From the UHGV virus genome UHGV-1981267: a stretch of 31,152 nucleotides of DNA. One strand, written 5' to 3'. Positions 3,001 to 31,152 of this stretch are shown piece after piece. Source of the stretch: a virus. Numbering within the stretch: the first letter of the stretch is position 1; each line of letters begins with the position of its first letter. Position numbers and translations under genes: made by a program. The notes under the pieces were generated by a model. That model was not told the DNA's origin. It did not search any database and saw only the letters and a list, made by a program, of their open reading frames with translations.

Positions 3001-3253
3001 AGAGCATACTGATATTTACTCCTCATGCCGTCTGATAGTGCGGAAAAACGGTGCTGAAATTTATAACCGTACCGCGCTGGATAATACGCTGATTTACAGT
3101 GGCGTTATTGATATGCCTGCCGGTCACGGTCACATGACACTGGAGTTTTCGGTGTCAGCATGGCTGGTAAATGGCTGGTATCCCACAGCAAGTATCAGCG
3201 ATTTGCTGGTTGTGGTGATGAAGAAAGCCACTGCAGGCATCACGATTAGCTGA
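1..3253 (+). CDS. J: Tail tip host-specificity protein (lambda J-like), 5' end cut by window edge
   Basis: Track ORF 11..3253 is open to the window edge. Sits directly upstream of lom and stf as in lambda. Size and context fit J. Confidence 0.85.
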
Positions 3254-3272
3254 ATTTTATAACCCAGATACG

Positions 3273-3297
3273 GGCACCAGAAATGGTGCCTTTTTTA
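3273..3297 (+). terminator. Intrinsic terminator after J
   Basis: Stem GGCACC / GGTGCC with loop AGAAAT, followed by a run of six T. Confidence 0.6.
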
Positions 3298-7797: not shown

Positions 7798-7826
7798 TAT
7801 CCCCTGCGATGCAGGGGATATTTCTT
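7798..7826. terminator. Bidirectional hairpin between convergent genes
   Basis: Perfect 10-bp stem TATCCCCTGC / GCAGGGGATA with 3-nt loop. T-rich on plus side (TTTCTT). Sits between the plus-strand membrane-protein gene and the sopB 3' end. Confidence 0.5.
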
Positions 7827-8790
7827 AATTATCAGTAGATTGTTCCTCTAGTAACAACTCAATTCTGCTTAGTATTTCTTTAGATATTTTTCGGCTATCA
7901 ATTTTTATAGTTACAAAATTACCTTTATATCTAGCCGTGATCCCTTCCCCATATTTTTTCTCGTCTTTTGTTTTTTCCTCGTCGCCAACTAGAACAGAGT
8001 CAGATAATATTTGTATAATCCGTGAAGCTTCTAAATCCTCGCCGTTTTTTTTAATTGCCAGAAGATGATGAGCAGCATTGCTCATGGCAGTCATGTTTTT
8101 TTTGTAGACCTTAAACAAAGAATCTCCAGCACGAGCTGACAGTTCTCCTGGATGATTGAAGATAGCTAATATATCTTTTGGTAGACCAGCTGTATTAATA
8201 CAGCGAGTGATAATATTTCTGTCTATATTTTCAGCCTCGGCTAATGCTTTAACGTTACCATCAAAGTCATTTAGCTTGCGTAAGTATCTCTTTCCTCTTT
8301 CGTATGCACTAATAGGCCTATAATCGTTACCAATTTGGGATAACCAATGCATCTGTTCATCGTCGAGATCACCTATTAAGACGCGATAGTCACATCCTGT
8401 TAATATCGCTGCTTTTCTTCTACGTGAGCCGTCAGCGACTTCAACGACTCCAGACACTTTTCTGGCGAAAGCTGGATTTTGTTGTCCAGACGTTAGAAAA
8501 GATGGGATTAAATCGGCTAGAGAGGATTCATTTAATAAATCTTGATCGCGTTCATTACCTAGCCATACCATTGTTGCCATTTCAACTTTATCTGCGGGAA
8601 TTGTCTCTAACTTAAAGTTAACATTACGTCCGCATACTGGCAAAGTTATGCTGTTACCGGTTAATGAACTCAGTTGACGTTTTAAATCACCAACCATAGG
8701 TGATACGGGCTGATGTTCAGGGGCATGATGATTATTACTCATAATGCGATTAATATCTGGAGCATTTTTTAGAAGAGAGCGCTGTTTCAT
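7825..8790 (-). CDS. sopB: Partition protein SopB (ParB family)
   Basis: 321 aa. Blocks match recalled F SopB (ITLPVCGR, GNERDQ, IPSFL-GQQ-PAF, ADGSRRRKAA, GNDYRP-SAYERG). Start overlaps sopA stop. Confidence 0.9.
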   Translation of the reverse strand: MKQRSLLKNAPDINRIMSNNHHAPEHQPVSPMVGDLKRQLSSLTGNSITLPVCGRNVNFKLETIPADKVEMATMVWLGNERDQDLLNESSLADLIPSFLTSGQQNPAFARKVSGVVEVADGSRRRKAAILTGCDYRVLIGDLDDEQMHWLSQIGNDYRPISAYERGKRYLRKLNDFDGNVKALAEAENIDRNIITRCINTAGLPKDILAIFNHPGELSARAGDSLFKVYKKNMTAMSNAAHHLLAIKKNGEDLEASRIIQILSDSVLVGDEEKTKDEKKYGEGITARYKGNFVTIKIDSRKISKEILSRIELLLEEQSTDN

Positions 8791-9956
8791 TATTCGTTCT
8801 CCCAGCGAGGTTTTATTAGATCATCAAAAATTTCTCGGCAAACAGGGTCCCATATAGAAACAGCATTTCTCCATGCATTCAATGTTGAACGTTGGTTTGC
8901 TGCTTGTTCAAATACTGTTCTCATTTTTATCTGGCCTTTACCTACTTCATCGGTAACGCGTACAACCTGACGTAATACCATTGATCCCCATGTATTTCTT
9001 ATTTGTTCTTCCATCCATCGTGATTGATTCCCTGTAGTGAGACTATATTTAGTCAGAAGTAAGCGAACGGTTGGCTCAAATCCACCTAGGTCAACGCTTT
9101 CCAATAGATCGAGAAGCATTGTGAAAAACTGTAGAACAGAAGCGTAATCAAATAATTCTGCAGGTGTAGCAACAACAATAACGTCAGCGGCACAAACAAC
9201 GTTAATGGTTCCTGTACCGAGGTTCGGAGCACTATCTATAACGATAACATCGTAGTTATCCCAAACTGATTCAATAGCTGCGCGCAGCATAAGGTGTGGA
9301 GGATGAGGCAATTTACCCTGAGCATGATATTGCATGAGATCTGTTTCTATACGATGTAAAGCTAGGCAGCTAGGGATAATGTCTAGCCCAGGCCAACATG
9401 TTGGCTTTATAGCATATTCAGCGTTATCGCGTTCTCCTAAGTAAAATGGCAGTAAAGTATCCTCGGCATGGATATGTAAATCAGGAACATAACCGTGATA
9501 CATAGAGGCCGTGCCTTGAGGATCGTTACCTTCAACCAAAAGAACACGATGACCTTGTAATGCTAACCATTGAGCTTGATGTACCGCAGACGATGTTTTA
9601 TAAACGCCGCCTTTGTGTGACATAACGGCAAGCACAACAGGGTTTTTATCTTGTGGTCGTTGGTTTGGGTTGCCAAAAACTGCTCGCATACTGTTGATTT
9701 GATCTATGGTATAACCAGCACGACGTTCAATTCTTCCTCTCATTTCAAAGTCAGGTGCAGGTAAACGCCCGCTCTTCTCAGCATCTCTAATTGCTTGAGG
9801 AGTTACACCAATTAAATCTGCTACTTCAGTTATACCCCATCGGCGGGTGATACGCCGAGCTTCAGGACTATCATCACCGAATTGAGCGATAGCAATTGCT
9901 TGGGTCATTTCTTGACCTCTCGTAACACAATCTTGCAATAACTTTTTCAAAGACAT
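8790..9956 (-). CDS. sopA: Partition ATPase SopA (ParA family)
   Basis: 388 aa with deviant Walker A (KGGVYKTS). N-terminal HTH region. Same length as F SopA. Confidence 0.92.
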   Translation of the reverse strand: MSLKKLLQDCVTRGQEMTQAIAIAQFGDDSPEARRITRRWGITEVADLIGVTPQAIRDAEKSGRLPAPDFEMRGRIERRAGYTIDQINSMRAVFGNPNQRPQDKNPVVLAVMSHKGGVYKTSSAVHQAQWLALQGHRVLLVEGNDPQGTASMYHGYVPDLHIHAEDTLLPFYLGERDNAEYAIKPTCWPGLDIIPSCLALHRIETDLMQYHAQGKLPHPPHLMLRAAIESVWDNYDVIVIDSAPNLGTGTINVVCAADVIVVATPAELFDYASVLQFFTMLLDLLESVDLGGFEPTVRLLLTKYSLTTGNQSRWMEEQIRNTWGSMVLRQVVRVTDEVGKGQIKMRTVFEQAANQRSTLNAWRNAVSIWDPVCREIFDDLIKPRWENE

Positions 9957-9977
9957 ACTGTCATCTCCAGCTTGTAA

Positions 9978-10055
9978 CTTTGCTTAATAATTAAATCTTT
10001 GCTTATTTCTAGCAAATTTGCATGAAAAAGGCAAAGCAAAACGAAAAACGCAAAG
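9978..10055 (-). promoter_or_regulatory. sop promoter/operator with CTTTGC hexamer repeats
   Basis: CTTTGC at 9978 and 9997; inverted GCAAAG at 10031 and 10050. F sopAB operator uses CTTTGC repeats bound by SopA. Confidence 0.55.
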
Positions 10056-10246
10056 GGGAATATTTGAGCTAAATCATCTTTTGTTCCCCTCCCGAAATGC
10101 ATAAAACGAACAACGATATAATCATAACTAATTGATATTTATTGTCTTTTTAAAAGAAAGGAAATCATGTAAAACTAGGGAAACATGATAAGAATCATCA
10201 ATGAGATACGTTTTCTCTATTAGTTCTCCCAATCTTACCAATACAA

Positions 10247-10390
10247 GAACATAAACAAAGAACATAAAAATAAAGTAATGATACAAACACAATAAAGAAC
10301 ATAAATAAAGAATTATAACCAATGCTAAATAAATCAGTACACAATATGAGAACATTACACCAAATGAGAACATTAATCAAGAACATAACG
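10247..10390 (+). repeat. Array of six to seven direct GAACAT(A/T)A motifs flanking telRL
   Basis: Copies at 10247, 10260, 10297, 10350, 10368, 10381 (and 10393 within the telRL arm), all same orientation, irregular spacing, very AT-rich. Confidence 0.5.
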
Positions 10391-10392
10391 AA

Positions 10393-10434
10393 ACATAATT
10401 GCCCATTATACGCGCGTATAATGGGGAATTATGT
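10393..10434. other. telRL: Telomere resolution site (telRL-like palindrome with telO core)
   Basis: 42-bp palindrome ACATAATTGCCCATTATACGC|GCGTATAATGGGGAATTATGT with one mismatch. The central 22 bp CCATTATACGCGCGTATAATGG matches my recollection of N15 telO. Immediately upstream of telN. Confidence 0.8.
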
Positions 10435-10604
10435 GCTGATTTTCAGAACAAAGTCAAGGAACAAATTTTAACGTTCCGATATTGTGTTTTTATTTATTAT
10501 CCGTTATTGTGTTCTGTTAGTTTGTGCCTAAGTTAACGCGTTATTAGTTATATTATTCTCAAATTGTGTTACGATAATCCGAGCGGATAATCAGGAGAGG
10601 AAAG

Positions 10605-12512
10605 ATGAGCAAAGTAAAAATCGGTGAATTAATAAACTCACTTGTTAGCGATGTTGAGTCAATAGATAACTCTGACCGTCCTCAAGGGGAGAAAACAAAA
10701 AAAATAAAGGCTGTTGCATTAAAATTTAAAAATGCATTATTTAATGACAAGCGAAAGTTTAGGGGGAAAGGATTAGAAAAAAGAATTACAGCCAACACAT
10801 TCAATGCCTATATGAGCAGGGCCAGAAAACGGTTTGATGATAAACTTCATCATAGCTTTGAAAAAAATATACATCGCCTATCTGAAAAGTATCCTTTATA
10901 TAATGAGGAGCTATTGTCATGGCTTTCTCTACCTGCTGCCGATATTCGCCAGAGAATGTCAGCTTTACAGGCAAAATTAAAATTAATTCTCCCTCTATCA
11001 GAAGATTTATCTAATATCAGAATTGGCGATAACAAAAGTCATAACAAGTTATTGAAATTATCAAATAAATATAAAGAGTGGCAATTCGCCATTTCTGATT
11101 TAACTAGCGATAACTGGAAAGATAAGCGCGATTATTTATATAAATTACTACAGCAAGGATCTGCCTTACTTGAGGAGTTGAATCAGCTAAAAGTTAACCA
11201 TGAGATTCTCTATCATCTTCAACTAAGCCCTGCCGAACGTGCATCTATCCAGCAACGATGGGCGGACGTTCTGCACAATAAAAAACGTAACGTGGTGGTC
11301 ATTGATTACCCTAAATATATGCAAGCTATTTACGATATTATAAATAGCCCTGCTACATTAAATAATCTAAACACTCGTTCAGGTATGGCTCCTTTGGCAT
11401 TTGCACTTGCTGCATTGTCAGGAAGACGAATGATTGAGATTATGTATCAAGGTACATTTACTGTTTCTGGTAAGTATACCGTTGATTTTTTAGGCCAAGC
11501 TAAAAAAAGAACTTCTGATGATATAACCAGAAAAATATATACATTATGCGAAGCAAAAACATTTGTTTATTTAATAAATGTACTTCGCTCATGCCCAGCA
11601 GCATCTGATTTTGATGATGTCGTTAAAGGTTATGGAGATAACGACACACGCTCTGAAAACGGACGTATTAATGCCATATTAGCAAAGGCTTTTAACCCGT
11701 GGGTTAAATCATTTTTCAAAGATGACCGCCGTGTTTATAAAGATAGTCGTGCTATTTATGCCCGTATTGCGTATGAAATGTTTTTCCGCGTAGATCCTCG
11801 TTGGAAAAACGTAGATGAAGATGTTTTCTTTATGGAAATTTTAGGCCATGACGATGAAAACACTCAATTACACTATAAGCAATTCAAGCTGGCCAACTTC
11901 TCAAAGACATGGAGGCCAAATACTGGAAACGAAAATACCAGGCTGGAAGCATTGCAGCAGCTTGATGACGAAATGCCTGGATTCGCCAGAGGAGATGCCG
12001 GGGTTCGTCTGCATAACACAGTTAAGCAGCTGGTAGAGCAGGACCCCTCTATAAAAATCACGAACAGCACTCTAAGAGCGTTCAAATTTAGCCCAACAAT
12101 GATTAGTCGATACCTAGAATTTGCTGCTGATGCTCTGGGGCAATTTGTTGGCGAAAACGGACAATGGCAACTGAAAATAGATACTCCAGAAATCGTTATG
12201 CCTGACGAAGAAGAACTGGAAGCAATACCTGAACTGGCGGATGAATTATCAGAGGATGACGATCTGGATGACGACGAAATTGAGATAGAGGAAGAGGAGG
12301 AGGAAGAGGAAGAGGAAGAGAGCGTAGAAGAACAGCAACCGCCTGCACCTTCTTCGCCTGTATCTAAGCCGGTATTTAAGCCGGTGAGAAATATTGGTGA
12401 TGGCTCATACGTTGTTGAGTTTCATTATAATGGCCAGAATTATGCGTGGTCCGGCAGTGCAAACAGCCCCATGTCAGCAATGCAGTTAGCATGGCTGACA
12501 TATTTCGGTTAA
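10605..12512 (+). CDS. telN: Protelomerase (TelN-like telomere resolvase)
   Basis: 635 aa. N-terminus MSKVKIGELIN... matches recalled N15 TelN. Strong SD AGGAGAGG. Adjacent to the tel site. C-terminus carries an acidic poly-Glu tract. Confidence 0.9.
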   Translation: MSKVKIGELINSLVSDVESIDNSDRPQGEKTKKIKAVALKFKNALFNDKRKFRGKGLEKRITANTFNAYMSRARKRFDDKLHHSFEKNIHRLSEKYPLYNEELLSWLSLPAADIRQRMSALQAKLKLILPLSEDLSNIRIGDNKSHNKLLKLSNKYKEWQFAISDLTSDNWKDKRDYLYKLLQQGSALLEELNQLKVNHEILYHLQLSPAERASIQQRWADVLHNKKRNVVVIDYPKYMQAIYDIINSPATLNNLNTRSGMAPLAFALAALSGRRMIEIMYQGTFTVSGKYTVDFLGQAKKRTSDDITRKIYTLCEAKTFVYLINVLRSCPAASDFDDVVKGYGDNDTRSENGRINAILAKAFNPWVKSFFKDDRRVYKDSRAIYARIAYEMFFRVDPRWKNVDEDVFFMEILGHDDENTQLHYKQFKLANFSKTWRPNTGNENTRLEALQQLDDEMPGFARGDAGVRLHNTVKQLVEQDPSIKITNSTLRAFKFSPTMISRYLEFAADALGQFVGENGQWQLKIDTPEIVMPDEEELEAIPELADELSEDDDLDDDEIEIEEEEEEEEEEESVEEQQPPAPSSPVSKPVFKPVRNIGDGSYVVEFHYNGQNYAWSGSANSPMSAMQLAWLTYFG

Positions 12513-12523
12513 ATCATACAGTA

Positions 12524-12553
12524 AAGGCACCGAATTAACGGTGCCTTGTTGTG
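12524..12553 (+). terminator. Possible terminator after telN
   Basis: Stem AAGGCACC / GGTGCCTT with 8-nt loop, followed by GTTGTGTG (weak U-tract). Confidence 0.4.
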
Positions 12554-12683
12554 TGACCTACCTCGCCTGCCCCCTGCAAAGGGCAGAAGTAACGGAGGAA
12601 ACGCGGCTGCAACCACAGACATCACCGCCCCGACTGCGAGGCTTCCCTTCTCTAAGAAGGGCATAAATTCGGGCTGGTCAACC

Positions 12684-13457
12684 CTATTTATTGGTGATTT
12701 CTGCTGGCTTTAGCTGCGCGGATAACTGTTCAAGTTTTTGAACTGCCAGTTCAAAATGCGCGGGTAACGCCTTTTCCAGATCAGAGTTAATATCGGTGAT
12801 GGGTAAATCACCACACGACATACTCCGCCTACCCCCACGAACAACATCACGCAACAACTCTCGTTCATACGTGCGCATGTTCCCCAATGCCGACTCAGCA
12901 GCCGTCAAAATCCGGCGCAGTTCTGCCGTAATTGCTGGCAAATCATCAACCGTTATGGGGTTCGGGGATGGATTACGACACGCCCGACGCAAAGCTAACC
13001 ATACACCGCTAATCCAGGCATTTCGGTACTGAAAACTTTGTGCTATATCGTTAATCAGCCCTCGCAGATACTCTTTCTGCCTCCAGTTCAACGGCTCCGC
13101 TGCTCGCATTGGCTCAGGCTCGATGTAAACGTACTCTCCATTTTTGCGAATAGAGGGCAAGACTTCGTTCGTTACCCATTTGCGAAACCGCCAAGCTGTT
13201 GTGCCTTGCTTCACCGCGTCACGGCAGCGGAGAATGAGCGTGTAAAGACCTGATTCACTGATGATATTGGCTTGACCTTGACGGCCTATGTTAAACATAG
13301 ATCGCTCATCTTCATCTAATCGAGCGATAGCTTGTGTGACATTCTGGATGCTTAAAGCATTGCAAATATCATTCGCCACAAACCACGGATCGCCGTTAAT
13401 CATCACTACACGTACCTGATGCTCTTCCTGAAAGGAAAAGACTGCTAACGCGCTCAT
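12684..13457 (-). CDS. Antirepressor (Bro-N / AntA-like N-terminal domain)
   Basis: 257 aa. N-terminal FSFQ...VRVVMINGDPWFVANDICNAL is a typical Bro-N motif. Last gene of an immA-like operon. Confidence 0.8.
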   Translation of the reverse strand: MSALAVFSFQEEHQVRVVMINGDPWFVANDICNALSIQNVTQAIARLDEDERSMFNIGRQGQANIISESGLYTLILRCRDAVKQGTTAWRFRKWVTNEVLPSIRKNGEYVYIEPEPMRAAEPLNWRQKEYLRGLINDIAQSFQYRNAWISGVWLALRRACRNPSPNPITVDDLPAITAELRRILTAAESALGNMRTYERELLRDVVRGGRRSMSCGDLPITDINSDLEKALPAHFELAVQKLEQLSAQLKPAEITNK

Positions 13458-13687
13458 TCAGCCTCCTTACCGTGCAGCAATTGCGACGAGAGCGATGCTG
13501 AATATCCCTGTGCTTCGTGTGTTAACTCACACGCAATTTGAAGGAGTTTCCCTGCTTCTGAGAGATAAATCGACGCCTCACAGCTGGAGACTGTCCGATG
13601 GGCTGATGATACGAGCGCATAGACCTGAGCCAGACGTTCATCCAACGATTCCAGCAGGCCAACAGTGTTCATTTTTACCTGATTCAT
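13454..13687 (-). CDS. Hypothetical protein of the anti-immunity operon
   Basis: 77-aa ORF. Stop overlaps the antirepressor start; start overlaps the stop of the upstream small ORF. Confidence 0.55.
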   Translation of the reverse strand: MNQVKMNTVGLLESLDERLAQVYALVSSAHRTVSSCEASIYLSEAGKLLQIACELTHEAQGYSASLSSQLLHGKEAE

Positions 13688-13848
13688 GCAGCCACCTCGC
13701 GCACCGGAATACGGGCAGACAATACCAGGACAAACCGGCTGGCGAACTGGCGACGAGCTTCCCGTTCAGATGACGCGATGGTGGAAAGATGATGGATGTG
13801 TGACTTTTTGTCTGTGCGAACGACTGCCGCAAATTTGAATTTGAACAT
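13684..13848 (-). CDS. Small ORF (54 aa), possibly Icd-like cell-division inhibitor
   Basis: Hand-translated MFKFKFAAVVRTDKKSHIHHLSTIASSEREARRQFASRFVLVLSARIPVREVAA. SD GGAGTG upstream. ATGA overlap with next gene. Below the track's length cutoff. Confidence 0.4.
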   Translation of the reverse strand: MFKFKFAAVVRTDKKSHIHHLSTIASSEREARRQFASRFVLVLSARIPVREVAA

Positions 13849-13869
13849 GGTATGCACTCCGTTTAATTG

Positions 13870-14070
13870 GTCGTGCTACCACCAGAGTTCTCACGCTCTT
13901 GAATGGTGGTAGCCCAAGCGGGGGTGAGAATACCGGCAAACGAAGAAACCGGCCTGACCGAAGTCAGCCCCGCCTGAGCCACCATAAATCGGATATGCGC
14001 AGGTATATACACACAAAAAAACACGCTGGCGCGTGTTGTGCGCTTCGTTTATCCGGGTTCTCACGCCCGG
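13870..14070 (-). ncRNA. Structured leader / candidate small regulatory RNA of the immA operon (P4 CI / N15 CA RNA-like)
   Basis: On the transcribed strand: GUGAGAAC (from 14057..14064), then UUCUCACCCC (13921..13930), then GUGAGAAC (13887..13894) inside a 10-bp stem (13875..13913). The middle element is complementary to both others. Confidence 0.4.
14012..14035 (-). terminator. Intrinsic terminator inside the immA leader
   Basis: On the minus strand: CACGC-GCCA-GCGUG hairpin followed by UUUUUUUGUGU. Confidence 0.5.
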
Positions 14071-14145
14071 CTGCGGAATTTGCCGCAGCGGAGTAACTTT
14101 ACCGTCAAAACGACGCACACGTCAATAATTTGCAAAGACATTTTA

Positions 14146-14165
14146 CCCCGTGACCAGTCACGGGG
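14146..14165. promoter_or_regulatory. 20-bp palindrome CCCCGTGAC-CA-GTCACGGGG between the upstream gene cluster and the immA promoter region
   Basis: Near-perfect inverted repeat. Could be an operator or a terminator for the gene ending at 14227. Candidate TTGACG -35 elements lie just downstream on the minus strand (about 14100..14130). Confidence 0.4.
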
Positions 14166-14226
14166 ACAGGTGTTTTTATAGTTTGCTTGAACGAGTGATC
14201 AGAAGTTGATCGTTAATCAAAGGCCA

Positions 14227-14514
14227 TTACGGATTAAGAGAGTGGAAATACCTAACTAACTTACCGGCATCATCACATTTTTCTTTATCTTCTTCCTTAA
14301 CATAGCCGCGACAGAAGGCTGAATAAAATTTCGCATTTTCAGAAGCAAAAGCAGCCGTCGAAAGGAGCAGTTCTTTGCATGATTCTTTTGATGCAGCATC
14401 GGGATTATTTTTACATGCAAGCTCCGCTGATGAGTTAATAACAGAAATGCTATCTTCCTGGGCATAAACCGCAGCAGAAAAGGCAAAACATAAAACCAAA
14501 ATAAAACTCTTCAC
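14227..14514 (-). CDS. Small secreted cysteine-containing protein, unknown function
   Basis: GTG start at 14514 preceded by AGGAG. Predicted signal peptide MKSFILVLCFAFSAAVYA. Four Cys in the mature part. Confidence 0.55.
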   Translation of the reverse strand: MKSFILVLCFAFSAAVYAQEDSISVINSSAELACKNNPDAASKESCKELLLSTAAFASENAKFYSAFCRGYVKEEDKEKCDDAGKLVRYFHSLNP

Positions 14515-14541
14515 TTTATCTCCTGTAACAGTTATCACAAC

Positions 14542-14937
14542 TCAATCAACTTTTTTAGCATCAGCCATACGCTTCAACCAGTAATCAACAATCGGCTGCT
14601 CATCCACAGAATGTTTACCAGGTATAACTCGCCAGCTATCTTGCGAAAATCTGCCGTACTTACGCGGGAATAGGCCTTTCTTTATCTCCCGCCATGTACT
14701 AGGAAAACCATCCACAAAAGTACCAATTAACAGGAGAGGGACAAAAATCAGAGCTACAAACCATCGTGCAAGAAAGTGTTCAACAACAACATTTTCACCG
14801 TTGTAGTAATACGCATACGCATCCAATATGCGAATTTTCCTTACCTTAAAAATAGCCTTATGCTGAGAACGACTTAACTTGATACGAATGTATCCCTTAT
14901 CCAAAGGGGATTCGTATTTGTATGATTGAACAGCCAT
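14542..14937 (-). CDS. Hypothetical protein with one hydrophobic segment
   Basis: Track ORF 14542..14949. ATG at 14937 lies 2 nt after the upstream gene stop (coupled). Confidence 0.45.
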   Translation of the reverse strand: MAVQSYKYESPLDKGYIRIKLSRSQHKAIFKVRKIRILDAYAYYYNGENVVVEHFLARWFVALIFVPLLLIGTFVDGFPSTWREIKKGLFPRKYGRFSQDSWRVIPGKHSVDEQPIVDYWLKRMADAKKVD

Positions 14938-14939
14938 TT

Positions 14940-15266
14940 TTAACCCCACTCACCATCAGCAAACAAAGCGTTATACTCTGACAATGGTAGATGGTTGCCC
15001 TCGATGTAGAGATTCAGTTCATACTTCGTCTCCGGGTTTTCCTTGTCGGCTCGTTCCCAACGCTCAGCAGCCTCACGCGCCAATAATTCCACTGCTTTCA
15101 GATAATCCTCCGTACGGAACCAGCCAAAGATAAGGCCACGATCTGTTACAGCCCAGGCAACCTTTTTTTCTTCCTCCTGGATAGCCTTAATGCGTCGATC
15201 GCATTCATCCCGGCAAAACTGCAGCTGACGGTAATCAAGTTTGTCCAAAAATGCAGTAGTAGACAT
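14940..15266 (-). CDS. Hypothetical protein
   Basis: 108-aa ORF, same strand and tightly packed with neighbours downstream of repA. Confidence 0.45.
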   Translation of the reverse strand: MSTTAFLDKLDYRQLQFCRDECDRRIKAIQEEEKKVAWAVTDRGLIFGWFRTEDYLKAVELLAREAAERWERADKENPETKYELNLYIEGNHLPLSEYNALFADGEWG

Positions 15267-15270
15267 ATTT

Positions 15271-15462
15271 TTACTCCCCGTTCACCGAAAAATCACGATA
15301 GAAACGTTTCCACATACGATAAGTCTGCGCGAGTTGTTCACCACGAAACATCGCCTTCCTGGCCTTCATGTTTTCCTTGTGAGACTTTCGATCTATGAAC
15401 CAAAACCATTGCTGGAACACACAAAGCAAGAGACACAAAGATAATATCCACTGATTACCCAT
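15271..15462 (-). CDS. Possible small membrane protein
   Basis: Internal Met of track ORF 15271..15579. Hydrophobic segment WILSLCLLLCVFQQWFWFI. Overlaps repA stop by a few nt. Confidence 0.3.
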   Translation of the reverse strand: MGNQWILSLCLLLCVFQQWFWFIDRKSHKENMKARKAMFRGEQLAQTYRMWKRFYRDFSVNGE

Positions 15463-18400
15463 AGAAAGCGCCCTGCTCTTCGTAGCTGCATGGGCTATTC
15501 CCGGTAATGTATTCACGTAACCGCCGCAGTTCATTGCTGGATAAGTGATCCATGAACTCTGTGAGGTACAGAGATGCAAACGTCATAGCTATGCTGGCTG
15601 ATGACCATGATGACATAGTGGCCAGCTCCTCACCGGAAAGCGCACTCATCGCCCAGGACTCAGGTACAACCACTGGCAACACAGCCAAAGCCTCAGAAAT
15701 TACTGAATGAGGGGCGTTTTGAACCTGCTCGTTTGTGGATCGCGTTTTATCATCCATATATATATTGAGATCCAAATCGCGATCCATTTCGATGGCGGTC
15801 TTCTCGGCTTTACGCGTTTTCAGGGTTAGGCCATCTTTCTGACGCTGAGCAAGAATATCCAGCATAAATGCCGCTGATTCAGGCTCAACAAAACGCAAGG
15901 TTGGACGCTTATCGCCGTCTCTGCCGCGACGTTTACCTGTTTTAAGGCCAAGAGAGTCGCAAATGTTTTTAAACAACGCTTCCGGCACTTTAGGCTTCCC
16001 TTTTGGCGTCATAAAACCACCAATGTGCAGAACGTTATTCAACAGGTCACGGCGTTCGGCTGTCATGAGGTTATCTCGAGCGAATTTGAGACGCTCCTGA
16101 GTCGCCTCGCCGGTCATAGTCTCAGGGTTGATACCGCAGTCGATAAAGTACTGCCGGAGAGTTGCTGATTTAAGCGCATAGAAACCGCGCGCCCCGACTT
16201 CAACAGTAGGAGTAGCTTTTACCTTGTAGTCGATTATTCCAAGGAATTTAGTTTTAAAGACATCATCAGCCTGCTCGCGAGTCATCGCGGTCACTACAAA
16301 ATATTGCCACTGTCCCGCCTGACGGTATGCGTAGGTAAAATTGATGGCTGCTTCTTCCCGGTCGTAACGACGAGCTGTTACCTCATCTAAAAGCATTGTT
16401 TCATAGCGGCGAATTTTGTCTCGAGCACCATCGAAATAGAATTTCAGCGTGCCTTCTTCAACCGGTAGTTTCAGTTCGTTCTCAATATCCCAGCGGACAA
16501 GTTTTGCTTGTTCTTCAAGCGTCAGCGCGCGTTTTTTTAGCAGTTCTTCACGCTCTGATTCTTGTGGAGTTTCTGTATTGAGATGCAGATCCAGTGTCTG
16601 TTCCCACACAATATCCCGCGCTTCTTTACGCAGATCTTTACCGATATCATTCGCAGCATAATCGGTGGCCAGCGGCGATACCTTATAACCGTCGCTGTGC
16701 ATGATGCAGATCATGTTGCTGGCGTAGTCGTTACGCGCAGACGCTTCAATTGCGGCTGCTTTAATTTTCATCCTGGTAAAGTCGGTATTGGCCACCCCCA
16801 TTGATATACGGTCGCCATCGAAAACGACATCCGTCAGTTCACCGTTCATGCCTGCGGTAGCAAGCAATGCCTGGGCGAATGCTCGTTCTATTTTTTGCGG
16901 GTCAGTTTCACGTTTTGCGCGAGCTTTATCAAAGCCGATAATAAATTCTTTTGCTGTACGGTCGCGGCGTAGCATTTGCACTGCGTCGCTGGGTACAACT
17001 TCACCACAGAACATGCCGAAATGACGGTCAAAATGTTTTTGCTCAATTGACACACCGGATGAAATAGACGGGCTATAAATCAGGCCGTCGTATTTTTTGA
17101 CCATCTTTTTCGGTTGATTGGTAAATGCTTCAACTTCTGGCTCTGGTTTGTTTTTCTGGTTTACACACAGAAATTTCTTACCAGGAAAATGCATTCTCAG
17201 GGTGGCGGTCACATCTTCTGCAAAGGTGGAGCTGTCGGTGGCCAACATGATTTTTTCGCCATTCGATACAGCTTTCACCACCTCGGTCATAATGCGATCT
17301 TTTTCTGTATAAAAAACCCGGATTGGCTCACCTGTTTCGCGGTTGCGAAGATCAACAGGTAATTCAATTACGTGGATCTGCAGCCATGCCGGTAAACCTA
17401 GTTCTTCACGGCGTTTCATAGCCAGTTCAGCTAGGTCAACCAGCAGATCGTTCGCATCAGCATCCACCATTATTGGGTGTTGTTCCGTTCTGGCCAGCGC
17501 GTCAATTAACGTATTGAATACAGCCACCGGGTTTTCCATAGCCCGACCGGAAAGAACGGCACGTAGCCCTTGCGTGGCCTCGTCAAAGCCAAAATAGTCG
17601 TGCTGGCGCATCAATGGTTGCCAGCAGTTTTTAACAATCGAGTTTATGCAGATGGTCAGTTTACTGGCGTATGGAGCCATTTCCTGATAGCCAGGGTCCT
17701 GATAGTGCAGGATATCGGCTTTTACACCTTTTCCTTCTGTCATCATTTCCCACAGGCCACCAATAAGGGAAACACGGTGAGCAACAGAGATACCACGTTC
17801 TGAGCTATGCATTAAAGGTCGTAACAATCCAGTAGATTTGCCGGAACCCATACCAGCACGAACGATGACTATCCCCTGTAGTGATTGCACATACTTCAGG
17901 ACGTCATCGGTCATTACCGAAGTTTCAAAACGCTTATAGGTGATATGTTGAGGACGTTTATTGGGATCAGTTATTCGTTCGCTGAATGAGCGCGGAGCCT
18001 GGGCAATACGGCACTTTTTATTCAGGCGACGGGCAATGTGGTCTTTTACCGTAGCGCGATAGATATTTTCCAGCCCAATTTCACGCAGGACGATGCAGAA
18101 CATGTTAAATAAGTCTGACGGACTGTTAGGAACCGGACAGGTTAGCATGCCAATATCCACTGCTCTCAGCAGCTCTTTGGCAAAAGTACGACGGTTATCC
18201 CGCTTAATTGTCTTCAGGCGGTTGAGCGTCAGAGATAGCAAATCAGTGCCAGTTTTCAGGCGGTTTGCAGTTGCAAACAGTTGACGTGCTGTTTCACGAA
18301 GTCCACGTAGTTTGTGCAGGTCGTTGAAGTCACTGCACTCCATTTGCGGATCGTCTTCAAAAGTTGGATAGACGCAGCGGACATCGTTGAATTTCGATAA

Positions 18401-19450
18401 GATTTCATAGCCAGTCCGCAGGCCGGTATTCCCTTTTCCTTCTGTAGCTGATTTCCGGTCATTATCCAGTGCGCAGGTGATTTTTGCCGCCGGGTACATG
18501 TTTACCAGTTGTTCCACAACATGAACCATGTTGTTAGCGGATACAGCGACAACCACAGCGTCAAAGCGTTTATCTTTTTTCGTGGCAAGCCAGATGGATG
18601 CACCAGTAGCAAAACCTTCTGTAACAGCGATGTTTTGCGCCCCTTTCAGCTCACCGATAACAAAGCAGGCACCGACGAAATCGCCGCTGGTTACGGCGCT
18701 GGTCTGGTATTTTCCACCTTGTTTGTCGATTCGCTGCCAACCAACAATACGACCATCGTAACGACCGTCCAGGTGAGCCAGAGGGATAGACATATACGTG
18801 GTTGGCCCCCTGCTCCATTTTGCGCTGTCGTGACTGGTCACGCGACGCACATCACACGAATTAAAAACGTCACGAATACCTTTTTTAATCGCATATGGCC
18901 ATGAGCCGTCTTCTGCAGGAGCATGTTCCCAAGCACTGTGGAATGCCAGCCATCCCAGCAAACGTTCATGGTCCATTTGGTTGTTTTTCAGGTCATTAAT
19001 TCGTTTTTGTTCTTCACGGCGACGACGTGCTTCGGCCTGACGTTCTATTCTTGCCCGTTCTTCTTCCGGTTGTGCGACCACGGTCGCATTATTCCGTTGT
19101 TGCTCACGGCGATATTCAGAAAACAGGAAGGAGAAACCGCTCCATGAGCCAGCATCGCTGCCTTTATGGACGAAGTTAATGAACGGGTAATCAATCCCTT
19201 TGCTGTGTTCCAGCCGGGAGTAAATTTCTACGCGTCCTTTGAGGCTCTTCTCGAGAGCTTCTGGAGATGTTTTATTGTATGAAGAGTAACGCTCAACACC
19301 CCCGCGAGGGTTGAGTTGGATGTTGTCGGAACAGGCAGACCAGTTGATACCAGCCATCTGTGCCAGCTCGGTTAGTTCATCCCGTGCTGCTTCAATTAGC
19401 GAGAACGGATCGCTGCCAAAGCGATCCGCATAGAAATCGTTTAATGTCAT
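15455..19450 (-). CDS. repA: Replication protein RepA (primase plus helicase, N15 RepA-like)
   Basis: 1331-aa ORF. Walker A GMGSGKS in the central helicase region. Size and position next to cB as in N15. Confidence 0.9.
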   Translation of the reverse strand: MTLNDFYADRFGSDPFSLIEAARDELTELAQMAGINWSACSDNIQLNPRGGVERYSSYNKTSPEALEKSLKGRVEIYSRLEHSKGIDYPFINFVHKGSDAGSWSGFSFLFSEYRREQQRNNATVVAQPEEERARIERQAEARRRREEQKRINDLKNNQMDHERLLGWLAFHSAWEHAPAEDGSWPYAIKKGIRDVFNSCDVRRVTSHDSAKWSRGPTTYMSIPLAHLDGRYDGRIVGWQRIDKQGGKYQTSAVTSGDFVGACFVIGELKGAQNIAVTEGFATGASIWLATKKDKRFDAVVVAVSANNMVHVVEQLVNMYPAAKITCALDNDRKSATEGKGNTGLRTGYEILSKFNDVRCVYPTFEDDPQMECSDFNDLHKLRGLRETARQLFATANRLKTGTDLLSLTLNRLKTIKRDNRRTFAKELLRAVDIGMLTCPVPNSPSDLFNMFCIVLREIGLENIYRATVKDHIARRLNKKCRIAQAPRSFSERITDPNKRPQHITYKRFETSVMTDDVLKYVQSLQGIVIVRAGMGSGKSTGLLRPLMHSSERGISVAHRVSLIGGLWEMMTEGKGVKADILHYQDPGYQEMAPYASKLTICINSIVKNCWQPLMRQHDYFGFDEATQGLRAVLSGRAMENPVAVFNTLIDALARTEQHPIMVDADANDLLVDLAELAMKRREELGLPAWLQIHVIELPVDLRNRETGEPIRVFYTEKDRIMTEVVKAVSNGEKIMLATDSSTFAEDVTATLRMHFPGKKFLCVNQKNKPEPEVEAFTNQPKKMVKKYDGLIYSPSISSGVSIEQKHFDRHFGMFCGEVVPSDAVQMLRRDRTAKEFIIGFDKARAKRETDPQKIERAFAQALLATAGMNGELTDVVFDGDRISMGVANTDFTRMKIKAAAIEASARNDYASNMICIMHSDGYKVSPLATDYAANDIGKDLRKEARDIVWEQTLDLHLNTETPQESEREELLKKRALTLEEQAKLVRWDIENELKLPVEEGTLKFYFDGARDKIRRYETMLLDEVTARRYDREEAAINFTYAYRQAGQWQYFVVTAMTREQADDVFKTKFLGIIDYKVKATPTVEVGARGFYALKSATLRQYFIDCGINPETMTGEATQERLKFARDNLMTAERRDLLNNVLHIGGFMTPKGKPKVPEALFKNICDSLGLKTGKRRGRDGDKRPTLRFVEPESAAFMLDILAQRQKDGLTLKTRKAEKTAIEMDRDLDLNIYMDDKTRSTNEQVQNAPHSVISEALAVLPVVVPESWAMSALSGEELATMSSWSSASIAMTFASLYLTEFMDHLSSNELRRLREYITGNSPCSYEEQGAFYG
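15736..15786. other. Candidate replication origin element inside the repA 3' region
   Basis: Inverted repeat TGGATCGCG ... CGCGATCCA flanking the AT tract CATATATATATT. Three GATC sites within about 50 bp. Confidence 0.35.
19073..19088. other. sopC-like centromere palindrome (inside repA coding sequence)
   Basis: TGCGACCACGGTCGCA: 7-bp inverted arms with 2-bp spacer. One base per arm different from the F sopC core TGGGACC-AC-GGTCCCA as recalled. Confidence 0.7.
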
Positions 19451-30924: not shown

Positions 30925-31152
30925 TTAATGCAAGTGATAATTATTCTCACCTTTGCGGGTCCTTTCCGGCGATCCGGCAGGCTACGGGGCGGAAGGCGCG
31001 CGGGTTTTCGCTATTTATGAAAATTTTCCGGTTTAAGGCGTTTCCGTTCTTCTTCGCCGTAACTTAATGTTTTTATTTAAAACACCCCCTGAAAAGAAAG
31101 GAAACGACAGATGCTGAAAACGGGCTTTTTGTCCTATGTCGTTTCCTTTCTC
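30925..31152 (+). other. cos: Lambda-like cos region (cosQ, cosN, start of cosB)
   Basis: Near-colinear with recalled lambda termini (...GGGTCCTTTCCGGCGATCC...TTACG | GGGCGG...CGCGGGTTTTCGCTATTTATGAAAATTTTCCGGTTTAAGGCG...). The presumptive 12-nt cosN at 30987..30998 reads GGGCGGAAGGCG. Confidence 0.8.

What the first reader, a model, noticed from the sequence alone, without database searches (positions are those of the whole stretch)
30925..31152. Lambda-like cos with a variant cosN core
Flanking cosQ and cosB sequences are near-identical to lambda as I recall them. The 12 nt at the position of the lambda cohesive end read GGGCGGAAGGCG, which differs from my recollection of lambda (GGGCGGCGACCT). 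If accurate, this changes the cohesive-end sequence and possibly terminase specificity.
Basis: partly seen in the sequence, partly recalled or inferred. Interest (0 to 1): 0.4.

Follow-up and report, generated by a model that had tools for sequence, protein, structure and literature searches.

The report
Natural variant of lambda cohesive end
The site where this lambda/N15-type phage genome is cut for packaging carries a rare but naturally recurring spelling of the 12-base sticky end, confined to the half of the site already known to tolerate change, so it is an ordinary allele and not a new packaging system.

Summary
Window 30987-30998 reads GGGCGGAAGGCG exactly where lambda has GGGCGGCGACCT. 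cosQ, the left half of cosN, the CG pairs flanking both nick positions, I2, R3 and R2 are identical to lambda in sequence and spacing; R1 has one mismatch. [quoted passage not shown] Published genetics (PMC4669245) shows this half is not read by lambda terminase and varies naturally (N15, phiD326, Gifsy-1).

The allele is real and recurrent. It is in 155 of 5,426 complete E. coli genomes, in about 46-kb linear plasmid prophages of E. coli, E. albertii, E. fergusonii and Shigella, and in 56 IMG/VR contigs. Only 2 of 50,697 deposited phage genomes have it. It is one of at least 20 natural right-half alleles.

Terminases encoded next to it are 99% identical to lambda gpA, with no diagnostic residue, so a change in terminase specificity is not supported. 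The sticky end itself is predicted to change, and would mismatch lambda's at 5 of 12 positions, but the ends were not mapped.

The window is an N15-like protelomerase plasmid prophage carrying a lambda-specificity packaging module. Overall this is a new allele of a known variable site, of low interest.

The parts
30957..30963 (+). cosQ (GGGTCCT), the packaging-termination signal. It starts 30 bp left of the top-strand nick, as in lambda.
   Evidence: It is identical to the lambda right end in sequence and position. That cosQ is the 7-bp GGGTCCT at lambda 48473-48479 is from my memory of Wieczorek & Feiss. PMC4669245 states only that the 7-bp cosQ is highly conserved.
30985..31000 (+). cosN core: CG + 12-bp cohesive-end sequence + CG. 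The predicted top-strand nick is between 30986 and 30987. The predicted bottom-strand nick is between 30998 and 30999.
   Evidence: This follows the 16-bp definition of cosN in PMC9026076. Both flanking CG dinucleotides are conserved. The nick positions are inferred by homology and were not mapped.
30987..30992 (+). [quoted passage not shown]
   Evidence: In 120 unselected IMG/VR cos sites, bp 1-5 never vary and bp 6 varies in 4.
30993..30998 (+). [quoted passage not shown] Lambda has CGACCT and N15 has CGTCCG. It differs from lambda at bp 7, 8, 9, 10 and 12.
   Evidence: It is one of 20 natural alleles found in IMG/VR.
31004..31036 (+). I2 segment (lambda bp 18-50) between cosN and cosB, identical to lambda.
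   Evidence: The extent of I2 is taken from PMC4856287. Identity is shown by the alignment.
31036..31051 (+). R3 (lambda bp 50-65, AGGCGTTTCCGTTCTT), the critical TerS binding site, identical to lambda and at the same distance from cosN.
   Evidence: The R3 coordinates are from PMC9026076.
31052..31094 (+). R3-R2 interval that contains the IHF site I1. It has four substitutions against lambda, at bp 71, 73, 97 and 102. The boundaries are approximate.
   Evidence: See the alignment. The position of I1 between R3 and R2 is from PMC4669245 and PMC4856287. The exact I1 limits were not determined here.
31095..31110 (-). R2 (lambda bp 109-124), in inverted orientation. It reads AGAAAGGAAACGACAG on the + strand and is identical to lambda.
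   Evidence: It was derived as the 16-bp repeat CTGTCGTTTCCTTTCT that R2 and R1 share in lambda (PMC9026076) and located in the window sequence.
31136..31151 (+). R1 (ATGTCGTTTCCTTTCT). It has one mismatch to the lambda R1 (CTGTCG...) at its first base. The window ends one base later.
   Evidence: The C-to-A change at 31136 was not seen in the other 59 variant-allele sites listed.

Best explanation
This is the functional cos site of an N15-like linear-plasmid prophage that carries a lambda-specificity packaging module.

**Proposed mechanism**
- TerS, whose DNA-binding domain is identical to lambda Nu1 in the closest relatives, binds R3/R2/R1 with IHF bending the DNA at I1.
- This positions a TerL that is about 99% identical to lambda gpA on cosN.
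- TerL nicks after the conserved CG on each strand, 12 bp apart. The predicted ends are 5'-GGGCGGAAGGCG on the left and 5'-CGCCTTCCGCCC on the right.
- cosQ, 30 bp upstream, serves packaging termination.

**What the difference from lambda is**
The five differences sit in bp 7-12, the cosB-proximal half of cosN. The anchored terminase does not read this half, so it is free to vary. The window's spelling is one of many natural alleles. It is old relative to its flanks, and recombination inside the conserved cos island has spread it among lambdoid prophages and N15-like plasmids.

**Shown versus inferred**
- Shown: the sequence anatomy, the recurrence of the allele, the allele spectrum and the lack of terminase covariation.
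- Inferred: the nick positions, the function of the site and the evolutionary route.
For: **Anatomy.** cosQ, the left half of cosN, both flanking CG pairs, I2, R3 and R2 are identical to lambda, and R1 has one mismatch. There is no indel from cosQ to bp 70.

**Known tolerance of this half.** PMC4669245 reports that:
- changes in bp 7-12 are common in lambda-like phages (N15 and phiD326 at bp 9 and 12; Gifsy-1 at bp 8, 9 and 11);
- mutations in bp 7-12 have minimal effect;
- lambda and N15-specific terminases give equal yields on cosN-lambda and cosN-N15.

N15 has G at bp 12, like the window.

**Recurrence.** The same 12-mer is found in:
- phages YDC107_1 and PhiR46_1;
- 16 or more PLSDB plasmids from E. 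coli, E. albertii, E. fergusonii and Shigella sonnei;
- 155 of 5,426 complete E. coli genomes, at 166 places;
- 56 IMG/VR contigs.

**Allele spectrum.** IMG/VR holds 20 right-half alleles, including single-step neighbours of the window allele (AAGGCT, CAGGCG) and of lambda's (CAACCT). In 120 unselected sites, bp 1-5 are invariant and bp 6 is changed in 4.

**Terminase.**
- 29 full-length TerL encoded beside the variant are 98.9-99.8% identical to lambda gpA.
- No residue is fixed differently from the 24 TerL encoded beside the lambda allele. The same holds for Nu1.
- TerS residues 1-70 of plasmid pS159-3 are identical to lambda Nu1.

**Reshuffling.** The allele occurs with at least 12 kinds of left flank and at least 4 kinds of cosB. 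Within lambda-type cosB sites, every flanking polymorphism is shared between the two allele groups.

**Sticky-end stability.** The GC content (10/12) and the nearest-neighbour duplex energy (-17.8 against -18.2 kcal/mol for lambda) are about the same as lambda's.
Against: - No virion ends were mapped for any phage with this allele. Neither of the two phage records is deposited in cos-to-cos coordinates.
- The variant creates a (CG)3 run across bp 11-16. In principle this offers alternative CG^C contexts for the bottom-strand nick.
- A 5-of-6 difference far exceeds the 4-fold-site divergence of the adjacent genes: A is 6-9% and Nu1 is 6-22%. In-place neutral drift alone therefore does not explain it. 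An old allele plus recombination, or local hypermutability, must be invoked.
- The terminase genes of this particular genome lie outside the window.
Confidence: 0.85

Rival explanations
1. The variant cosN is paired with a co-evolved terminase of altered nicking specificity, giving a new packaging or cutting specificity class.
For: The change is large: 5 of the 6 right-half positions, and 5 of 12 in the cohesive end. In lambda, cosN mutations in the left half can be suppressed by gpA mutations that extend endonuclease specificity (Arens et al. 1999, from memory).
Against: - TerL beside the variant is 98.9-99.8% identical to lambda gpA.
- Every polymorphic position is shared with, or is a rare variant against, TerL beside the lambda allele. 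No difference is fixed.
- The TerS DNA-binding domain and R3 are identical to lambda.
- The literature shows bp 7-12 are not read by the enzyme.
Confidence: 0.04
2. The nicks are placed differently, for example slipped by 2 bp in the GCGCGCG run. The real overhang would then not be the 12-mer GGGCGGAAGGCG.
For: A (CG)3 run spans bp 11-16 in the variant, against (CG)2 in lambda. No physical end data exist.
Against: - Terminase measures the cut from R3, and the cosN-to-R3 spacing is unchanged (Higgins & Becker 1994, as cited in PMC9026076).
- N15 has a similar CG-CG context at bp 11-14, and its record annotates a 12-base 5' extension.
Confidence: 0.06
3. It is a decayed, non-functional cos in a defective prophage.
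For: Most carriers are prophages known only from genome sequences. Only 2 of 50,697 phage records have the allele.
Against: - All constrained parts of cos are intact.
- Carriers have full-length Nu1 and A reading frames.
- The allele is shared across four host species and many genetic backgrounds.
- The PhiR46_1 record names a laboratory host (ECOR13) and belongs to a series of PhiR temperate-phage records. Other members of that series are used as plaque-forming temperate phages in PMC13190303. This evidence is indirect, because PhiR46.1 itself is not named in that paper.
Confidence: 0.03
4. Right-half alleles are kept distinct by selection. They would act as cohesive-end compatibility types that penalise chromosomes packaged between two different cos sites in polylysogens or hybrid concatemers.
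For: - The block is far more diverged than neighbouring 4-fold sites.
- Alleles are discrete, and intermediates are rare singletons.
- A 2-bp end mismatch already costs about fourfold in yield (PMC4669245).
- The allele is over-represented on plasmid prophages: 10 of 36 places, against 19 of 7,849 for the lambda allele.
Against: - Each genome has a single cos, so both of its ends always match. Selection from mixed concatemers should therefore be weak.
- Single-step intermediates do exist, as expected under drift.
- The over-representation on plasmids can be simple lineage founder effect.
- No test of selection was possible on 6 bp.
Confidence: 0.07

Closest known systems
Bacteriophage lambda cos (cosQ-cosN-I2-cosB with R3, I1, R2, R1)
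   Same: - All subsites are present in the same order and spacing.
- cosQ, cosN bp 1-6, the flanking CG pairs, I2, R3 and R2 are identical.
- The right flank is 94% identical overall.
- Relatives encode Nu1 at 93% and gpA at 99% identity to lambda.
   Different: - Cohesive-end bp 7, 8, 9, 10 and 12 differ (AAGGCG against CGACCT).
- The rotationally symmetric base pairs in the 16-bp cosN drop from 10 to 8 (my count from the sequence).
- The host genome is a protelomerase linear plasmid prophage, not an integrating lambdoid.
Bacteriophage N15 cos
   Same: - The genome type is the same: TelN, a tel palindrome, RepA-like and SopAB.
- The cohesive end shares GGGCGG and G at bp 12.
- cosQ is conserved.
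   Different: - N15 has GGGCGGCGTCCG.
- N15 has a simple cosB, with a single N15-type R3 and no IHF site (PMC4669245).
- N15 has its own TerS, about 54% identical to the TerS of the window's relatives.
- The window's replication region is only about 76% identical in DNA to N15.
Monarch group of N15-like prophages (Feiss et al. 2015)
   Same: They are N15-like prophages with a complex, tripartite cosB and an IHF site (PMC4669245).
   Different: Monarch's R sequences and TerS recognition helix are described as N15-type. Here R3 and the TerS DNA-binding domain are lambda-identical. The Monarch sequence itself was not examined here.
Natural cosN right-half variants: phiD326 and N15 (bp 9 and 12), Gifsy-1 (bp 8, 9, 11), mEp213/LLS (GGGCGGCGCGCT)
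   Same: It is the same phenomenon: substitutions confined to bp 7-12, with the left half and the nick-flanking CG pairs conserved.
   Different: This allele changes 5 of the 6 positions, more than any named example. It is paired with an essentially lambda terminase, whereas Gifsy-type sites go with a TerL only about 66% identical to lambda.

Membership tests
lambda-like cos site (12-base 5' cohesive ends related to lambda's; definition of Feiss et al., PMC4669245) | A conserved 7-bp cosQ at the correct distance upstream of cosN. | tested here: met
   GGGTCCT lies at 30957-30963, 30 bp before bp 1, as at the lambda right end.
lambda-like cos site (12-base 5' cohesive ends related to lambda's; definition of Feiss et al., PMC4669245) | [quoted passage not shown] | tested here: met
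   The sequence reads ACG|GGGCGG......|CGC at 30984-31001.
lambda-like cos site (12-base 5' cohesive ends related to lambda's; definition of Feiss et al., PMC4669245) | Virion DNA carries 12-base complementary 5' extensions generated at this site. | not testable with these tools
   This needs physical end mapping. No record with this allele is deposited in cos-to-cos coordinates.
lambda packaging specificity (cosB-lambda with TerS-lambda) | R3, an IHF site region, an inverted R2 and R1, with lambda-type R sequences at lambda spacing. | tested here: met
   R3 and R2 are identical to lambda. R1 has one mismatch. There is no indel between cosN and R2.
lambda packaging specificity (cosB-lambda with TerS-lambda) | A TerS with the lambda recognition helix, and a lambda-type TerL, encoded immediately downstream. 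| tested here: inconclusive
   The genes lie beyond the window end. In the closest relatives, TerS residues 1-70 are identical to Nu1 and TerL is 99% identical to gpA.
N15-like linear plasmid prophage (Ravinvirus-type) | A protelomerase gene with an adjacent palindromic telomere resolution site. | tested here: met
   ORF 10605-12512 matches the TelK_N, muzzle, catalytic and stirrup domains (E 1e-50 to 5e-25). A 24-bp perfect palindrome lies at 10402-10425.
N15-like linear plasmid prophage (Ravinvirus-type) | A large RepA-type primase/helicase replication protein and SopA/SopB partition genes. | tested here: met
   - A 1,331-aa ORF at 15455-19450 (- strand) has Toprim and origin-binding-protein matches. 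Both scores are weak: Toprim_3 is below the Pfam cutoff and Herpes_ori_bp only just above it.
- SopA (ParA-type) is at 8790-9956 and SopB_HTH at 7825-8790.
- Relatives are annotated as plasmid replication protein CyRepA1 and SopA.
N15 / Monarch packaging specificity | An N15-type R3 sequence and an N15-type TerS recognition helix. | tested here: not met
   R3 is identical to lambda, not to N15. The relatives' TerS is about 54% identical to N15 gp1, against 93% to Nu1.

The most novel reading that the evidence does not exclude
The six variable base pairs of cosN form discrete, long-lived cohesive-end types kept apart by selection. They would act as compatibility groups that make chromosomes packaged between unlike cos sites unable to cyclise. 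GGGCGGAAGGCG would then mark a separate end-compatibility group that shares lambda's terminase, centred on an N15-like plasmid-prophage lineage.
Probability: 0.07. Interest if true: 0.45.

Novelty: new member of a known kind. Interest (0 to 1): 0.15.

Why it matters
The matter is mostly practical.

**Annotation and handling**
- The 5' overhang of these phages and plasmid prophages should be annotated as GGGCGGAAGGCG.
- Their DNA will not anneal cleanly to lambda ends, with 5 mismatches in 12. This matters for end-based genome orientation, cos-mapping tools, cosmid or in-vitro packaging use, and predicting the outcome of mixed packaging.

**Support for existing models**
- The allele adds a natural five-substitution example to the evidence that lambda terminase does not read bp 7-12.
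- It shows that an N15-type plasmid prophage can carry a lambda-specificity packaging module.

It does not open a new question about packaging mechanism.

Tried and rejected
**Explanations rejected**
1. Sequencing or assembly error. The 12-mer recurs in many independent assemblies.
2. Lambda is GGGCGGCGACCT.
3. The window simply having the N15 end. N15 is GGGCGGCGTCCG, four differences from the window.
4. Terminase covariation. A per-residue comparison of TerL (29 against 24 sequences) and Nu1 (42 against 36) found no fixed difference.

**Searches that led nowhere**
5. Prior description. No phage paper in the held library prints the 12-mer or its complement; the only hits were unrelated primers. 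The survey by Vahanian et al. 2017 and the Virology 2015 N15 paper are not held. The source paper for the PhiR phages (Brenes & Laub 2025) is not held either. Prior mention therefore cannot be excluded.
6. Contigs ending at the site, as a proxy for physical ends. None of the IMG/VR loci ends at cosN.
7. Host range. A species-level scan of 185,579 genomes found the allele only in one Escherichia sp. genome. That collection holds one genome per species, so the result says little beyond genus restriction.

**Caveat on counts**
8. The first 36-mer counts were underestimates, because they required the window's own left spacer. They were redone with a right-anchored query.

Full report
**Observation.** The end of the window reads GGGTCCTTTCCGGCGATCCGGCAGGCTACG GGGCGGAAGGCG CGCGGGTTTTCGCTATTTATGAAAATTTTCCGGTTTAAGGCGTTTCCGTTCTTCTTCG.... 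The lambda reference ends ...GGGTCCTTTCCGGTGATCCGACAGGTTACG and begins GGGCGGCGACCTCGCGGGTTTTCGC....

The 12-mer at 30987-30998 occurs once in the window (0.01 expected). Compared with lambda without gaps:
- cosQ to the nick is 27/30 identical.
- bp 1-6 are 6/6 identical.
- bp 7-12 are 1/6 identical.

The right flank is 94.2% identical to lambda bp 13-167. A five-way alignment shows no indel from cosQ to bp 70, and the only clustered difference is CGACCT>AAGGCG.

**What the genome is.** The window is not a lambda-type integrating phage. It encodes:
- a protelomerase at 10605-12512, matching four TelK domains (E 1e-50 to 5e-25);
- a 1,331-aa RepA-like protein with weak Toprim and origin-binding matches;
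- SopA and SopB.

A perfect 24-bp palindrome, CCCATTATACGCGCGTATAATGGG, lies at 10402-10425, just upstream of the protelomerase gene.

The nearest records are about 46-kb plasmids of E. coli, E. fergusonii, E. albertii and Shigella sonnei, several deposited as linear, annotated with protelomerase and CyRepA1. The nearest phages are PhiR46_1 and YDC107_1; the latter is filed under Ravinvirus. N15 itself is only about 76% identical across the replication region.

The genome is therefore an N15-like linear plasmid prophage. Its cos is nonetheless lambda-type, not N15-type:
- N15 begins GGGCGGCGTCCGCGCAGATTCTCGC....
- N15 has a simple cosB (PMC4669245).

**Anatomy in window coordinates** (lambda bp = window position minus 30986):

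| Element | Window coordinates | Comparison with lambda |
|---|---|---|
| cosQ (GGGTCCT) | 30957-30963 | identical |
| cosN core (CG + 12 + CG) | 30985-31000 | differs at bp 7, 8, 9, 10, 12 |
| I2 (bp 18-50) | 31004-31036 | identical |
| R3 (bp 50-65) | 31036-31051 | identical |
| R3-R2 interval with I1 | 31052-31094 | four substitutions |
| R2 (inverted) | 31095-31110 | identical |
| R1 | 31136-31151 | one mismatch |

The window stops one base after R1. Subsite coordinates come from PMC9026076 and PMC4856287. The terminase genes lie beyond the window.

In close relatives:
- TerS is 93% identical to Nu1, and its first 70 residues (the DNA-binding domain) are identical.
- TerL is 634-638/641 identical to gpA.

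**Is the variant real and how common is it?** A 36-mer spanning the site finds:
- 2 phage records;
- 16 PLSDB plasmids;
- 33 complete E. coli genomes.

Those counts required the window's own left spacer. A right-anchored 36-mer finds 155 of 5,426 complete E. coli genomes, at 166 places: 150 chromosomal and 16 on plasmids. It still finds only 2 of 50,697 phage records.

A left-anchored lambda-allele 36-mer finds 7,849 places in 4,230 genomes. One chromosomal carrier I inspected is a standard integrated lambdoid prophage, with O, P, ren, Q, lysis genes, cos, Nu1, A, W and portal.

IMG/VR holds 56 contigs with the allele. Among one-genome-per-species representatives it appears only in an Escherichia sp.. 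Four of five further plasmids of the window's lineage also have it. The fifth, E. albertii pEA26_5, has GGGCGGCAACCT.

**Where it sits in natural variation.** The first 120 IMG/VR sites matching cosQ + GGGCGG + N6 + CG gave eight right-half alleles. A set of exclusion scans was exhaustive under those flanks, except for alleles differing from lambda only at bp 11. It gave 20 alleles:

| Right-half allele | Count | Note |
|---|---|---|
| AAGGCG | 51 | the window allele; commonest non-lambda |
| CGTCCG | 46 | N15 type |
| CAGCGT | 45 | matches Gifsy-1's reported bp 8, 9, 11 changes |
| CGTCCT | 12 | |
| others | rarer | |

The window allele and GAGCGG are the most diverged from lambda, at 5 of 6. 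Singletons AAGGCT and CAGGCG are one step from the window allele. CAGGCT and CAACCT lie on a possible path to lambda's CGACCT.

With all 12 positions left free, 116 of 120 sites kept GGGCGG. The four exceptions changed only bp 6.

This reproduces what Feiss and colleagues describe (PMC4669245):
- bp 7-12 vary in nature, while cosQ, the left half and the nick-flanking CG pairs do not.
- Mutations in bp 7-12 have minimal effect.
- G2C costs tenfold in yield, but its symmetric partner C11G costs nothing.
- Lambda and N15-specific terminases give equal yields on cosN-lambda and cosN-N15.

A dedicated survey exists (Vahanian et al. 2017, Virology 509:140; cited) but is not held. I therefore cannot say whether this exact allele was listed. 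No held phage paper prints it.

**Terminase specificity.** For every fetched locus I extracted the ORFs downstream of cos.
- TerL next to the variant (29 full-length sequences) is 98.9-99.8% identical to lambda gpA. This is the same range as TerL next to the lambda allele in the lambda-type group (24 sequences).
- No TerL or Nu1 position is fixed differently between the two groups. Every polymorphism is shared or a rare variant.

The enzyme that must cut this site is, for practical purposes, lambda terminase.

**Evolution.** Within lambda-type cosB sites, the only fixed differences between the allele groups are the five that define them. All flanking polymorphisms are shared. The allele is found with at least 12 kinds of sequence left of cosQ and at least 4 kinds of cosB. 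One of these goes with a TerS only 35% identical to Nu1.

Four-fold-site divergence between lambda and the carriers is 6-9% in A and 6-22% in Nu1. Five differences in six sites is therefore far above what the flanks predict. By my binomial arithmetic, P is about 2e-3 at 22% divergence and about 4e-6 at 6%.

pEA26_5 has a Nu1 gene 99.45% identical in DNA to that of pS159-3, yet its cosN right half differs at four positions.

The simplest reading is that right-half alleles are old. Crossovers in the conserved cosQ/cosN-left and I2 segments move them between backgrounds. Local hypermutability of the single-stranded ends, or selection for distinct end types, cannot be excluded.

**Consequences.** If the nicks fall where they do in lambda and N15, the ends are 5'-GGGCGGAAGGCG and 5'-CGCCTTCCGCCC.
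- GC content (10/12) is the same as lambda's and the nearest-neighbour stability is similar (-17.8 against -18.2 kcal/mol). Self-annealing should therefore be unaffected.
- Against a lambda end there would be 5 mismatches in 12.
- A 2-bp mismatch already reduces yield about fourfold. Mixed lambda/variant chromosomes are thus probably inviable. This is an inference.

**Limits.** The nick positions, and the function of this particular site, are inferred.
- Evidence that a carrier is a live phage is indirect. The PhiR46_1 record names a laboratory host, and the PhiR series is used as plaque-forming temperate phages in PMC13190303. PhiR46.1 itself is not named there.
- The (CG)3 run at bp 11-16 is a small reason for caution about the bottom-strand nick.

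**Verdict.** This is a further, unusually diverged, natural allele of a site whose variability is already described. It sits in an N15-like plasmid prophage that carries a lambda-specificity packaging module. Interest is low.

Noticed in passing
window 10402-10425: A perfect 24-bp palindrome, CCCATTATACGCGCGTATAATGGG, with its dyad between 10413 and 10414. Pairing continues for 8 of the next 9 positions. It sits about 180 bp upstream of the protelomerase ORF (10605-12512). It looks like the telRL-type telomere resolution site. Several plasmid and phage records of the same lineage begin within about 50 bp of it.
   Followed up: partly
window 7825-19450 and 30957-31151: An N15-like backbone (SopB, SopA, TelN, a 1,331-aa RepA-like protein) is combined with a lambda-specificity packaging site. 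R3 is identical to lambda, and in relatives the TerS DNA-binding domain is identical to Nu1. This is a third cos configuration for N15-like prophages, beside N15 (simple cosB) and Monarch (complex cosB with N15-type R sites) as described in PMC4669245.
   Followed up: partly
L187 (NZ_CP117614.1, E. albertii pEA26_5) 267-310: A plasmid of the same lineage carries a different cohesive-end allele, GGGCGGCAACCT. Its Nu1 gene is nonetheless 99.45% identical in DNA to that of a carrier of the window allele. The 6-bp block has evidently been exchanged or changed independently of its flanks.
   Followed up: partly
L312, L314, L315 (GGGCGT) and L313 (GGGCGA), IMG/VR loci: bp 6 of the cohesive end, usually counted in the conserved left half, is changed in 4 of 120 unselected lambda-like cos sites. 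bp 1-5 never change. The variable stretch may therefore be bp 6-12.
   Followed up: no
L103, L133, L165, L172 (IMG/VR loci): The same GGGCGGAAGGCG end is joined to a quite different cosB (…TATGAGCATTTTAAGGGGACTGGTGG…). The TerS there is only 35% identical to Nu1 and 47% to N15 gp1. One further locus in the list has a different cosB again (…CCGGGGAAAATCATGTCGG…).
   Followed up: no
L005 567-2489 against L006 711-2636: N15 gp2 and lambda gpA are 87% identical by BLASTP (558/640). PMC4669245 states 64.9% identity for the two TerL proteins. The discrepancy is unexplained.
   Followed up: partly
window 31132 and 31136: Two substitutions (G>T and C>A) fall in the R2-R1 spacer and at the first base of R1. 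Neither was seen in the other 59 variant-allele cos sites examined.
   Followed up: no
(E. coli complete genomes): The variant allele is strongly over-represented on plasmids: 10 of 36 places, against 19 of 7,849 for the lambda allele (both left-anchored 36-mers). This is consistent with the N15-like plasmid-prophage lineage being a main reservoir of the allele.
   Followed up: partly
L001 (CP025712.1, YDC107_1) 1875-3273: In this record the Nu1 CDS is annotated short (468 nt). A hypothetical ORF is placed on the opposite strand over the Nu1/A junction, and TerL starts late. These look like annotation artefacts rather than real differences, because the DNA is near-identical to PhiR46_1.
   Followed up: no
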